The notes under the pieces: generated by a model | Databases searched by the model: none | Seen by the model: only the letters and a program-made list of their open reading frames with translations | Told to the model about the DNA's origin: nothing | Position numbers and translations under genes: made by a program | Assembly (NCBI GenBank): GCA_964016885.1 | Contig: OZ024754.1 | Span: 29,078,001 to 29,142,000 of the forward strand | DNA length: 64,000 nt | Source: Eledone cirrhosa | Lineage: Eukaryota | Direction: 5' to 3' | Part shown: piece by piece, positions 18,988-57,023 of the stretch | Layout of the letters: every line of letters starts with the position of its first letter | Position numbering within the stretch: position 1 is the first letter of the stretch

Positions 18988-19310
18988 ACAATATATTAAC
19001 AAATGGAAACTATATTTATAAAACCATATTTATTTCATTATACATATTTCAAGGACACCAAAGCAAATTATGGTGCGCTTTCATCAGATAAAATATAATA
19101 TAGATCAGTTTTATAAACAGATATTGACATACCCTTAAAGAATACGACCATGTCGGTTGGAAGCTCCCGGATAGTATAGGGTATGTCAATATTTGTTTAT
19201 AAAACTGATCTATATTATATTTTATCTGATGAAAGCGCACCATAATTTGCTTTGGTGTCCTTAAAATATGTATAATGAAATAAATATAGTTTCCATTTGT
19301 TAATATATTG
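18988..19310. repeat. Fold-back cassette containing two opposed hammerhead copies
   Basis: Arms ~18988-19135 and ~19178-19310 are reverse complements; (TA)n lies on both sides. Confidence 0.9.
19032..19094 (-). ncRNA. Type-I hammerhead ribozyme motif (family A)
   Basis: attttat-CTGATGA-aag c gcacca...tggtgt c ctt-GAAA-tatgta-TA-atgaaat. The + strand copy at 19219-19281 has GAAA changed to AAAA. Confidence 0.8.
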
Positions 19311-19654
19311 TATATATATATATATATACACACATACATATATTTATTTACATGTGCACACATACAAATACATACACACACACATCATCATCATCATCAT
19401 TGTTTTTGTATTTTTTTCTATGTAATCAAGGGTTATATGAGACCTTTTTATTATTTTAGGCATTATTTTACAACCAGATGCCCTTCCTAATGCAAACCCT
19501 TAAATTGCAAAATTGTTGAGGGTTGTCAGGTGTATCCAGCTGGAGTTCCTGGGCTGGGAGTGTAAGTTAGTTAGGGTAGGTAAGAAGAGGAAGGAAGATT
19601 GGGTAAGCCAGGGTTAATTTAACTGCAGCTTGGAGTCATTAATTGTATCATTCA

Positions 19655-19845
19655 AATGGTGGATTGGCAGTATCGGTAGAGGGTTGGACGCCATGCTTTG
19701 ATGCATAGAGTTACGGCCCTTGCCATTCTGAGTTCAAATCCCGCCGAGGTTAACTTTGCCTTTCATCCTTACGGGGTCGATGAAATAAAGTACCAGTAAT
19801 ACACTGGGTAATTGCTGGCCTTGTGCCAAAAGTAGAAACAATTAA
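19655..19845 (+). mobile_element. Full-length tRNA-derived SINE with Deu/Nin-like domain
   Basis: ggtggattggcagtatcggtagag (A box), gagttcaaatcccg (B box), gcctttcatccttacggggtcgat, and tail gtgccaaaagtagaaacaatt. Confidence 0.88.
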
Positions 19846-21454
19846 TTGTATCATTCAAACATGATAGGATTTCATCTTAATATGGAATGTAGATTTAAGT
19901 TAGAAATTACCAGAACATTTAGATGTAATAATTGTATGTATGTAGTATAATATTGTATAAGTTTTTAAATATTTTATCATCATCATCCTCATATGTCTGC
20001 TTTCCATGCTGTCATGGGTGGGATAGGTTGTTGCAGTCTGAGACCATAGAAGTCAGATGACCATGTCATACTAATATGTTCCAATTTGGTATGCCCCCTA
20101 TGGTTGGATGCTCTTCATAATGCTAACCACTTTACACTATTGGTTGGATGTATGTTATTGTGGCATTACTTTACAGAGTGTAGTAGGTGCATTTTATAAT
20201 GGCACCAGCACAACCACTTTACAGAGAGAACTGCATGCATTTTATCAAGGCACCAGCATAACCTCCCTCCTTACAGAAAGAACTGGGTAAATTTTATCAT
20301 GACACCAGCACAACCTCTTAACAGAGAGAACAAGGTGCATTTTATCATGTCATGAGCATGTAATATAATATTATATGTCTCTAAAAAAACTCTACTGCTT
20401 TCTTCCCCCATCTGTTCTTGTCTTCTAAATCTTCTCTGGCATAATTTAACCCCTTAGCATTTAAACCGGCCATATCTGGCCAGAATTCTCTCACCTCTTT
20501 CTGTTCAAACCAGCTCCAACTTGCCATTCATACCAATGTTAACGTATTATTCTCAAAATAAATAATATCAAACTCTCATAGATTTGATATTATGCGAGAT
20601 AATTATGTGAGGTAAGGGCTTTACCGTGAAAATATAATAGTAAATATACAGTAATGTAAATACAAAAGGTCTAATCAAATTCTATTGTTTCCCATTTTTG
20701 TTCTAAATATCCTTGTTTTAGGGATAAAACATCAAAGCAAGATTTGAAAAGAATTATTATAGACTTACATTTAAAATAAGCTTGATCATATATTGACACC
20801 ACTTTGGTTTGGAAAAATATTAAAGTGCAAAATTATTGAGGAAAGAAGAAAAGAATATATATTTCTAAGCAACAGAAATCTGTTTTTAAAGATGTCTACA
20901 GATTTGATTCTTCATTGTTTCAAATATCATTTTATTTCTACTATATGTATTTTTTATTTTCTGCTTATCTATACATTTATGTTTGTGTTGTTGTGTTTCC
21001 ATCTATGAGACAAAATATGATGACCATGTACTTACATATCTACAATGGAGTTATATTTATAAGTTTATGTCTGCAGTAAACTTATATTTATGCAGTAAAC
21101 TTATATTTATGTGAATGAATTTCATAAGTTTATAAAACACATTAAAGTTTTATAACTACAGAAATAGTCACACAATGGCAGAAATGTTTATGCTGTGAAG
21201 TCTTAAGTGAGAGAAATGTTGGAAGAAAAACATTAAATACAAATAAAAATGATGAAAATAATAAATAAATATAGTAGAGTGGAGATAACAGTGTAGGCTA
21301 TAAAGACATACAATTATTTATTATGTTGGTAAATTCTCACTGGAACAATACTTCAATATGTTTCCAATTAGCATTATGTAACAAACTAGCAGTAGTGCCT
21401 CGTCAAGCCCAGGTTTATAGAAAATATCAGAAAGTATGTTATACACAATTCTAT

Positions 21455-22330
21455 GTAATTTGACTCCTGGTAATTTCACTCCTGGTATTTTCACTTCAGT
21501 AATTTGATACCTGGTAACTTGGTTGCCAGTCAATTTCACGCCCGGTAATTTCACTCCTAATGTTAGAAAAAAATTAAGTTTATTATTATTATTATTGTTG
21601 TTGGATTGGAAGTATCGGTGGAGGGTCGGACGCCATGCTTTGCAGCAAAGAGTTACGGCCCTTTATGGTCTGAGTTCAAATCCCACCGAGGTTAACTTTT
21701 CCTTTCATCCTTACGGGGTCGATAAAATAAAGTACCAGTAACGCACTGGGATAATTGCTGGCCTTGTGCCAAAAGTAGAAACAATTATTGTTGTTGTTGT
21801 TGTTTTACATAGGAATTCAGTTAACTGAAAGTATCATTTCATAATAAGGCCAGCAATTACCCAATGCATTACTGGTACTTTATTTTATCGACCCCGTAAG
21901 GATGAAAGGCAAAGTTAACCTCGGCAGGATTAGAACTCAGAATGGAAATGGCCGTAACTCTATGTGCCAAAGCATGGCGTCCGACCCTCTACCATTATTG
22001 CCAATCCACCGCCATAATAATAATATCATAATAAATTTCATAATAAATAATAATTGTTTCTACTTTTGGCACAAGACCAGCAATTACCCAGCGCGTTACT
22101 GGTACTTTATTTTATCAACTCCGTAAGGATGAAAGGCAAAGTTGACCACGGCGGGATTTGAACTCAGGATGAATTTCAATGTTTTATTTTTTTTTACTAT
22201 TGGGAGTGAAATTACTTGGTGTGAAATTGACTGGCAGTCAAGTTACCAGGAGTCAAGTTACCAAGGGTCAAAATACCAGGAGTCAAATTAGCCAGAGTGA
22301 ATATACCAGGAGTCAAATTACTGGCTACCA
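21455..22330. mobile_element. Fold-back/MITE-like element with long repetitive inverted arms, carrying three nested SINEs
   Basis: Left arm 21455-21572 is built of ~15 bp ggtaatttcactcct units; right arm 22188-22330 is its reverse complement. SINEs at ~21600-21790(+), 21848-22015(-) and 22050-22170(-). Confidence 0.75.
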
Positions 22331-55345: not shown

Positions 55346-55389
55346 CATTATTATTATTATTATTATTATTATTATTATTATCATTATTA

Positions 55390-55812
55390 AGGGCGGTGGA
55401 TTGGCAGTATCGGTAGAGGGTCGGGCGCCATGCATTGACGCATAGAGTTACGGCCCTTGCCATTCTGAGATCAAATCCCGCCGAGGTTAACTTTGCTTTT
55501 CATCCTTACGGGGGTCGATAAAATAAAGTACCAGTAATACACTGGGATAATTGCTGGCCTTGTGCCAAAAGTAGAAACAATTATTATTATTATTGTTGTT
55601 GTTGTTGTTGTTGTTGTTGATCTTAAATAAATTATAATTGTTTCTACTTTTGACACAAGGCCAGCAATTATCCCAGTACATTACTGGTACTTTATTTTAT
55701 CGACCCCGTAAGGATGAAAGGCAAAGTAAACCTCGGCGGGAATTGAACTCAGATCGTAAAGGGACGTAACTATGATGGAAAGCATATCCTACCCTCTACC
55801 GATACTGCCAAT
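55390..55812. mobile_element. Tail-to-tail inverted pair of SINEs
   Basis: 55390-55585(+) and 55635-55812(-), same family as 19655. Confidence 0.88.
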
Positions 55813-56957
55813 ATAAATTATAATATCTACAAAAAAGCTGTCTACTTCAGTTTCCTTAAGAACTTGTTAGTATAAAAACCGGTAGCAACGGTATGTATGT
55901 AGATTCATACACACACACATACACATTTATATATATAAATATATAAAAATATATATATATATATATATATATATATATATATATATGCACATATACTTAC
56001 ATATAAATATGATCACAAACACGAACACACGTATACACTTATATATATATATATATATATATATATATATATATATATATATATACATATATATGTATGT
56101 AAGTATATATATATATATATATATATATATATATATATATATACACACACATTTATATAAATATATATGTATATAATTTATTAATTCATTTCGGCACGCG
56201 ATGTATACAAGAAAGATCACATTCTGGGTTGTCTGATGTATATTTCAATACCTAATCGAATATTTATATTAATATCTAGGAAATTAGAAGCGATATTAAC
56301 AGTGAAATATAGAGCAAAACTATAGCAAACATATTGATATACTTCGTAGCAAAATCTACTAAAGTATTGATTGGAAAATACTCAAGTATCGATCAAAGTT
56401 TTAATATCTTAACCAAAGTGAAGAAAGAAATATTCTGCGGCTGCCAATGAAGGTTGTGATCTCAGAATACGTAAAGAAACACAAGTCTGAAATGTTTTCG
56501 TAGCAAAGTAAATTATGTGTATATATTTAATCATATATATATATATATGTATTTAATCATATATATATATATATATATATATATATATATATATATATAT
56601 ATATATATATATATATATATATTTAATCATATATATATATATATGTATTTAATCATATATATATATATATATATATATTTAATCATATATATATATATAT
56701 TTAATCATATATATATATATATTTAATCATATATATATATTTAATCGTATATATATATATATATATGCGTGCGCGCGCGCGCGTGTGTGTGTGTATGTAT
56801 ATATACATATACATATATATATGTATATACATTATATATATATATATATATATATATATATATATATATATATATATATATATATATATATACACATATA
56901 TATACGTATATTATTCAATATATTAATAAATGAAGACGTTTACATAATCAAAATATA

Positions 56958-57023
56958 TGTTTTATTATATATATTTCGGAGGTACTGTGCTTTTTTTTCA
57001 GAACGTCCTCATCAGATAAAATA
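56958..57023 (-). ncRNA. Type-I hammerhead ribozyme motif (family A)
   Basis: tattttat-CTGATGA-gga c gttctg...cagtac c tcc-GAAA-tatata-TA-ataaaaca. Confidence 0.83.

What the first reader, a model, noticed from the sequence alone, without database searches (positions are those of the whole stretch)
19032..57023. Family A hammerheads: five loci with covarying stem II and a conserved pyrimidine mismatch
Seen: the copies at 19032(-), 35153, 36931, 37416 and 56958(-) share (t)attttat-CTGATGA...GAAA-(6 nt)-TA plus an ataaaat-like stem I strand. Stem II varies in paired fashion: aag/ctt, gga/tct, gga/tcc and aaa/ttt, then gcacca/tggtgt, gtacca/tggtac, gtactg/cagtac and acaaatgtcat/atgatatttgt. A C.C (once C.U) mismatch always sits at the fourth position. 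Stem III switches between tatata, tatgta and tgcgca. Several copies share an upstream tatgtca motif and a downstream gagtgct motif. Inference: the mismatch may be a tertiary-contact site specific to this subtype.
Basis: partly seen in the sequence, partly recalled or inferred. Interest (0 to 1): 0.72.

Follow-up and report, generated by a model that had tools for sequence, protein, structure and literature searches.

The report
Penelope retrotransposon hammerheads with fixed mismatch
The five motifs are hammerhead-shaped RNA sequences, predicted to self-cut, at the ends of truncated copies of a known class of jumping gene; one branch of these elements keeps an unpaired cytosine at a fixed spot of an otherwise fast-changing stem, which is likely a contact point needed by active elements but has not been tested.

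Summary
The five loci (plus a broken sixth) are type I hammerhead motifs in the pseudo-LTR ends of Hydra-clade Penelope-like retrotransposons. Full elements elsewhere in the genome read hammerhead, 800-aa telomerase-like RT plus endonuclease, hammerhead. About 66,000 pattern matches share the layout. Stem III is an 8-nt palindrome, the known dimer design.

The mismatch is real. Position 4 of stem II is paired in 1 of 28 family representatives, its neighbours in 22-28 of 28. Genome-wide, 94% of one group are C·Y. 'Repaired' copies are rare and found no lineage in the group tested. Mismatch families form one clade (support 98) with proteins only 46-57% identical across its main branches. Sister families and 26 of 26 hammerheads from other sources lack it. 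The partner may be C, U or A, and no covarying contact in stem I was found, so the tertiary-contact role stays untested.

The GAGTGCT motif belongs to a hairpin present twice, each 5-11 nt beyond one of the two insertion ends; it likely positions reverse transcription. The scan found the same mismatch before on other DNA of this genome.

The parts
18897..19311 (.). Fold-back insertion of two 5'-truncated PLE ends between (TA)n runs; long-tail arm on -, short arm on +
19033..19093 (-). Hammerhead copy 1 (family A1); C10.4=19077, C11.4=19054, predicted cut after 19039
18959..18981 (-). Tail hairpin RCUC...GAGUGCU of copy 1
19220..19280 (+). Sixth, broken copy (G12 changed to A), mirror twin of copy 1; keeps C·C; short end
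35155..35217 (+). Hammerhead copy 2 (family B); C10.4=35171, C11.4=35196, predicted cut after 35211
35272..35302 (+). Tail hairpin of copy 2; element ends near 35361 in (TA)n
36932..36988 (+). Hammerhead copy 3 (family C); C10.4=36948, C11.4=36967, predicted cut after 36982
37043..37065 (+). Tail hairpin of copy 3; element ends near 37127
37418..37484 (+). Hammerhead copy 4 (family D); C10.4=37434, U11.4=37463, predicted cut after 37478; short fold-back about 60-100 nt upstream
37531..37558 (+). Tail hairpin of copy 4; element ends near 37613
56960..57021 (-). Hammerhead copy 5 (family E); C10.4=57005, C11.4=56981, predicted cut after 56966; short end, no tail hairpin

Best explanation
The motifs are type I hammerhead sequences in the pseudo-LTR ends of Hydra-clade Penelope-like retrotransposons, predicted to cut only as dimers through their palindromic stem III, and the unpaired C three pairs above the core is likely kept by selection in active elements as a contact point, most likely where long helix II would dock against helix I. 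SHOWN: full elements run hammerhead, RT-endonuclease ORF, 3' UTR, hammerhead; the window holds only 5'-truncated ends in (TA)n; the mismatch is confined to one protein clade. INFERRED (about 0.85): selection keeps it in master elements while inserted copies decay. INFERRED (about 0.4): its job is sequence-independent docking or a metal site that replaces the usual loop I-loop II contact, which these long stems cannot form at the canonical distance. INFERRED (about 0.65): two RCUC...GAGYRCU hairpins downstream set the two reverse-transcription starts. Because those starts lie 43-56 and 135-155 nt beyond the cut site, the copied RNA would have to be uncut or re-ligated there.
For: Element: L033, L038, L121 and L042 carry same-strand hammerheads 3.7-4.1 kb apart around an ORF. 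In the three intact proteins scanned, RW-x, DKT, YxDD, CxCX5C, YxGxT, CxxC and CxH are present and the N-terminal GxKF and CX2-5CxxC motifs are absent, as defined for Hydra (PMC8557442 section 11). The best fold matches are telomerase RTs. 26 of 34 mirror pairs have exactly one long-tail end. Mismatch: 46,437 C·Y against 736 C·R and 2,338 non-C. Catalytic C3 is changed in 1,053 and G-C repair occurs in 239. Among 28 representatives, position 4 is paired in 1 and neighbours in 22-28, with double-sided changes; 0 of 500 shuffles reach the covariation score. Parsimony gives 1 change at 10.4 against 3-8 at neighbours. The clade has UFBoot 98. 24 G-C copies need 22 changes on a 66-copy tree, so they form no lineage. 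26 of 26 distinct hammerheads from metagenome relatives are paired at position 4. Distance from the core is fixed while the distal stem and stem I vary, which fits geometry rather than mere weakening. Hairpins start at +53 to +61 and +143 to +160; insertion ends peak 5-11 nt before each in 4 families. The hairpin is in 11 of 18 outside relatives, 0.43 expected.
Against: No cleavage, probing or binding data. No conserved base at a fixed offset in or beside stem I; the only hints are A at 1.8 and 1.10 in 8 of 9 related, AU-rich groups. The partner base varies (C, U, A), and two of 28 representatives break the rule (one C-G, one U·C; single copies). Sister Hydra families in the same genome, one very young (150 hits at 99% identity), do without it. 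The parsimony tree was partly assumed (T group has no protein) and representatives were hand-picked from searches that partly required the C, so P of about 0.02 is rough. One tree row (A3) and locus L122 were mis-linked by nested insertions. In a Poseidon element, hammerhead cleavage was not needed for insertion in vitro (PMC11167929 passages).
Confidence: 0.55

Rival explanations
1. The unpaired C is read by a protein (the element's own RT-endonuclease or a host factor) that binds the hammerhead and chaperones or gates it.
For: Fixed identity and position with no RNA partner. PLE hammerheads cleave poorly in vitro and were proposed to need factors (PMC4209133 main text). The feature tracks one protein clade.
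Against: A better candidate binding site exists: the tail hairpin, shared with relatives that lack the mismatch. In the Poseidon element PAc the first 20 nt of the ORF, where stem II begins, could be removed without losing insertion.
Confidence: 0.25
2. The mismatch is a brake. It weakens the base of stem II so that the ribozyme stays slow or refoldable and uncut template survives for reverse transcription.
For: The mismatch costs 5.5-6.4 kcal/mol against C-G in four families. All insertions extend past the cut site. In long-context folds the three proximal pairs have low probability in many families.
Against: A brake would not need one fixed base at one fixed position. The specific switch I tested, tail GAGUGCU pairing with the core and C10.4, showed no co-evolution: matched against swapped families p=0.19, strong only in family A.
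Confidence: 0.22
3. The mismatch is an inherited accident, or a DNA-level constraint such as a promoter site in the pseudo-LTR, with no RNA role.
For: The tens of thousands of copies descend from a few dozen masters, so copy counts are not independent. Sister families lack it.
Against: Neighbouring pairs changed 3-8 times on the same tree. Repaired copies arise repeatedly yet never amplify in the group tested. The bases around the C vary freely, unlike a transcription-factor site.
Confidence: 0.13

Closest known systems
Hydra-clade C-terminal-EN Penelope-like elements, incl. Hydra-1_Obim (Craig et al. 2021, PMC8557442; read: passages, section 11, supplement part 2 of 59 with the File S1 Hydra sheet and File S2)
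   Same: RW-x, DKT, CxCX5C linker, CxxC and CxH motifs, (TA)n targeting, hammerhead in the pseudo-LTR, mirror 5'-truncated copies, tail at one end.
   Different: Units here are 3.7-4.1 kb (published: generally under 3 kb) and RWK reads RWT/RWI/RWR/RWK. By eye, none of the 26 Hydra rows of File S2 has a C·H mismatch at pair 4 of a continuing stem; the Hydra-1_Obim hammerhead is a different type. Copy number here is tens of thousands. The tail hairpin is not in the parts I read.
Minimal/dimeric type I hammerheads of metazoan PLEs (Cervera and De la Pena 2014, PMC4209133; read: main text parts 1-2 of 4, supplement file 2 parts 1-2 of 3; file 1 could not be searched)
   Same: CUGANGA/GAAA/UH core, long helix II, palindromic helix III implying dimers, single truncated copies and opposite-strand pairs genome-wide.
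   Different: No extra nucleotide between 9 and 10.1; 8-nt palindrome; conserved internal C·H. Irregular helix II has precedent: a bulge in D. virilis and, by eye, single Figure S3 rows with C·A (sea urchin) or U·U (Clonorchis) at pair 4, but not described as conserved.
Poseidon PAc of Anolis (Frangieh et al. 2024, PMC11167929; passages)
   Same: Two internal RT start sites downstream of the hammerhead that define the 'tail'.
   Different: Tail here is about 90-100 nt rather than 30-40, lies upstream of the ATG, and each start has its own copy of a conserved hairpin.
Canonical type I hammerheads and retrozymes (PMC7229834, PMC3088659; passages)
   Same: Same core; activity boosted by a helix I-helix II contact.
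   Different: Those use loop 2 after about 4 bp and sit in 200-400 bp non-coding tandems. Here helix II continues well past 4 bp and the parents encode protein.

Membership tests
Type I hammerhead ribozyme | CUGANGA, GAAA and UH core closed by three helices, open helix I | tested here: met
   Core invariant in 28 representatives; 15 of 17 pairs show double-sided changes
Type I hammerhead ribozyme | Match to an Rfam model at gathering score | tested here: not met
   0 Rfam hits in the window; likely because of the long helix II and loopless helix III (inference)
Type I hammerhead ribozyme | Self-cleavage at NUH | not testable with these tools
   Only contigs were available, which cannot show RNA ends
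Dimeric PLE hammerhead | Short palindromic helix III that pairs only between two copies | tested here: met
   Six 8-nt palindromes: no monomer hairpin, self-duplex -2.2 to -10.5 kcal/mol; covarying
Dimeric PLE hammerhead | Extra nucleotide between 9 and 10.1 and conserved G10.1-C11.1 | tested here: not met
   First pair is A-U 10, G·U 7, G-C 5, U·U 5, A·C 1 of 28, no bulge; most published Hydra rows also lack this feature
Penelope-like element | Single ORF with telomerase-like RT | tested here: met
   800-aa ORF, AlphaFold pLDDT 79, top Foldseek hits are TERT, E 1e-7; Pfam and PDB sequence searches gave no informative hit
Penelope-like element | Pseudo-LTRs, inverted 5'-truncated copies, tail at one end | tested here: met
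Hydra clade | DKT, RWK-type motif, CxCX5C linker, CxxC and CxH, no GxKF, no CX2-5CxxC | tested here: met
   (three proteins); third residue of RWK varies
Hydra clade | C-terminal GIY-YIG endonuclease without CCHH | tested here: inconclusive
   YxGxT motif and a three-strand/helix domain in the model; no profile hit and no separate fold search of that domain
Hydra clade | Insertion into (TA)n | tested here: met
   180 of 197 copies reach a (TA)4 run within 330 nt, at two peaks
Hydra clade | Generally under 3 kb (a typical, not strict, trait) | tested here: not met
   Units 3,676-4,097 bp
Hydra clade | Placement with named reference Hydra proteins in a tree | not tested
   Published Hydra sequences were not used; the tree has only unnamed homologs
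Retrozyme (non-coding tandem) | No ORF, 200-400 bp tandem repeats | tested here: not met
   Upstream sequence runs into a 3' UTR and ORF

The most novel reading that the evidence does not exclude
This clade uses an undescribed hammerhead design: a dimer-only ribozyme in which an internal C·H mismatch replaces the loop-loop contact as docking or protein-gating site. It is coupled to twin Hydra-wide hairpins that set the two reverse-transcription starts, so one 200-nt RNA module controls both cutting and priming of a Penelope-like element.
Probability: 0.3. Interest if true: 0.7.

Novelty: new variant of a known kind. Interest (0 to 1): 0.45.

Why it matters
What hammerheads do in Penelope-like elements is an open question: they are universal in canonical PLEs yet cut poorly and were dispensable in the one in vitro system. 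This genome offers a natural mutagenesis set (about 66,000 motifs, more than 20 sub-families, intact ORFs). It singles out one non-core base as constrained and points to a hairpin that likely sets RT starts. Both can be tested with short RNAs. The element class and the dimeric ribozyme are already known.

Tried and rejected
Rfam scan: no hit. Pfam on five ORF pieces and on 18 aligned proteins, and a PDB sequence search: nothing informative. Anti-ribozyme pairing of the tail motif with core and C10.4: rejected as a general rule (p=0.19). Search for a conserved partner base beside stem I: none. A repaired G-C lineage: not found in group G; group A-F repairs were judged only by eye from the listing. 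L122 as parent of group G: rejected as a nested insertion. Viral contigs: no relative. RNA runs: no RNA holder listed; this is no evidence either way. The A>G/T>C excess seen in run X23 on family D was only weakly repeated on family C. No covariance model was built, and other mollusc genomes are not searchable here. Lunse et al. on PLE hammerhead dimers (PMC5785218) is not held and could already describe such a variant. Literature searches that found no description of this mismatch or of octopus PLE hammerheads beyond Craig et al.. Unread supplements (Craig parts 3-59, Cervera file 1 and part 3 of file 2) may bear on novelty.
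Full report
Observation. The fourth position is C·C four times and C·U once. A sixth copy at 19226(+) has a broken GAAA and is the mirror arm of 19087(-). A structure descriptor that ignores the mismatch gives 5 hits in the window and none in 200 shuffles. Rfam does not recognise them. With A15.1 and U16.1, stem III is an 8-nt palindrome without a loop. The six variants tested form no monomer hairpin but self-pair at -2.2 to -10.5 kcal/mol, the dimer design known for PLE hammerheads (PMC4209133).

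What they belong to. The window lies in a 3.0-Gb genome. That it is an octopus is my inference from repeat content (recalled) and from earlier notes, not a test. A pattern for this motif gives 46,437 matches and 0 for the reversed control. A second group with a different stem I gives 17,046 against 113 (it includes a few internal false matches). Long copies run into a 3' UTR of about 1-2 kb and an ORF of about 800 aa. L033, L038, L121 and L042 have hammerheads on both sides of the ORF, 3.7-4.1 kb apart. The proteins carry the motifs that define the Hydra clade in PMC8557442 section 11, and a model folds most like telomerase RT. Pfam and PDB sequence searches were uninformative. Copies end in (TA)n (180 of 197 within 330 nt). 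Of 34 mirror pairs, 26 have exactly one long end. The window itself holds only 5'-truncated ends.

Is the mismatch conserved? In the first group, 46,437 are C·Y, 736 C·R and 2,338 non-C, so about 94% are C·Y. The C·R class contains a real sub-family with C·A, still unpaired; about a quarter of the first 100 listed are C-G (by eye). G-C occurs in 239, spread over all sub-families by eye. The catalytic C3 is changed in 1,053, so departures at 10.4 are of the order of neutral decay after insertion, raised by CpG context. In the second group 436 copies lack the C (with a narrower pattern). Copies are not independent, so I compared 28 hand-picked sub-family representatives (one more planned row was missing from the set and was dropped). 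Position 4 is paired in 1 of 28; positions 1-3 and 5-7 are paired in 22-28 of 28, with many double-sided changes, and 0 of 500 shuffles reach the covariation score. Parsimony gives 1 change at 10.4 against 3-8 at neighbours, rough P about 0.02 on a partly assumed tree. In a protein tree of 21 genome rows and 9 of 18 homologs, all mismatch families form one clade (UFBoot 98), with 46-57% identity between its main branches; one row was mis-linked. Sister families are paired at position 4, except one with C·A at position 3 and one unclear. Of 78 metagenome loci with related ORFs, 28 had a detectable downstream hammerhead (26 distinct), all paired at position 4. By eye none of the 26 published Hydra rows has it. 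Single published PLE rows with a mismatch at pair 4 exist. In group G, C-to-G looks enriched (about 23 against 11 C-to-A in the first 100 listed, by eye), perhaps templated by the hairpin. Yet 24 G copies need 22 changes on a tree of 66 (shuffled mean 19.8), so none founded a lineage. Contigs of four public runs, under three organism labels, show no variant of 5% or more at 10.4 or 11.4 of family D, though one run covers it thinly.

What it does. Shown: fixed base, fixed distance from the core, variable partner, variable distal stem, unrelated stem I. In canonical hammerheads helix I and II touch through loops (PMC3088659, PMC7229834 passages). Here both helices continue past that point, so I infer that the mismatch most likely supplies a sequence-independent docking or metal site (about 0.4). 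Against this, no partner base is conserved. Protein reading (0.25) and a brake (0.22; cost 5.5-6.4 kcal/mol) remain open. I tested one concrete switch, pairing of the tail motif with the core and C10.4. It is strong in family A (-12 to -16 kcal/mol) but not across groups (p=0.19), so I reject it as the general cause.

The downstream motif. GAGUGCU is the 3' side of an RCUC...GAGYRCU hairpin seen in all seven groups that had a long copy (the search required a near match). Full elements have a second copy about 90 nt further on. Insertion ends peak 5-11 nt before each copy in four families: D 43 and 135 against 53 and 143; A 47 and 144 against 58 and 149; A2 50 and 136-142 against 56 and 149; G 56 and 155 against 61 and 160. 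The hairpin is also in 11 of 18 outside relatives with enough sequence (9 of 27 were too short), 0.43 expected. By analogy with the two internal RT starts of PAc (PMC11167929 passages), I infer that each hairpin positions a start. Since both starts lie beyond the cut site, the template must be uncut or re-ligated there. The upstream motif is variable in spacing, absent in several representatives and unexplained.

Expression. No RNA run was listed. One run of unrecorded kind (X23) shows 9 A>G and 8 T>C sites on family D, most nearly absent from another run with the same organism label. This looks like editing of fold-back RNA, but the repeat on family C was weak and the samples differ. It is a hint only.

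Verdict. A real, clade-specific structural variant of a known ribozyme in a known retrotransposon clade; function untested. Earlier notes of this scan reached the same reading on other DNA; I looked them up only after my own counts and tree. Not in print as far as seven searches show, but the most relevant paper (PMC5785218) could not be read. A 2026 O. vulgaris repeat annotation lists Penelope-like expansions without mentioning ribozymes (PMC13282606 passages).

Noticed in passing
window 38284+, 58962-, 59341+, 59892+, 60439+: A repeat (three copies in a ~550-bp tandem) with hammerhead core pieces CUGAUGA and GAAA in an unusual order; earlier notes describe scrambled hammerheads in this genome.
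   Followed up: no
window 1143(-): Hammerhead of a sister type with paired position 4, like that of L229.
   Followed up: partly
window 40688(-) and 40996(+): Mirror pair of a minimal hammerhead with an extra base after A9 and a fully paired stem II whose first eight bases equal those of group G.
   Followed up: no
window 44864(-)/45180(+), 45459(-)/45471(+), 48109(-)/48207(+): Further fold-back pairs with hammerhead-core-like words.
   Followed up: no
L031:6040-6345, run X23: Excess of A>G and T>C differences around the family D hammerhead, like A-to-I editing of fold-back RNA; weak in a second family.
   Followed up: partly
L130, L171-L190, L211-L213: Very young sister family: 150 of 150 scored hits at 99% identity, several with 785-aa open frames; hammerhead with a 4-nt palindrome and no mismatch.
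   Followed up: partly
L230, about 850-970 nt after the endonuclease end: Hammerhead-like motif with an ~80-nt stem II region and C opposite C at position 4 but unpaired positions 1-3; one copy seen.
   Followed up: no
L191-L210, L214: Sister family whose stem II has C·A at position 3 and whose core often reads CCGAUGA.
   Followed up: partly
window 18945-18965(-) against 19074-19087(-): In family A the tail is nearly complementary to the core and 5' stem II (-15 kcal/mol), a possible family-specific off-fold.
   Followed up: yes
genome-wide: About 40,000 further hammerhead-like matches above control with other stem III palindromes.
   Followed up: partly
window 1873-3225, 8230-10875, 49989-55099, 61410-62407: LINE-type ORF remnants (RTE-like and L1/Tx1-like; labels recalled, not tested).
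   Followed up: no
window 28737-33366: 4.6-kb degenerate (AT)n array.
   Followed up: no
16-42 nt upstream of the window hammerheads: Upstream TGTC-type motif at variable spacing, missing in several representatives; role unknown.
   Followed up: partly
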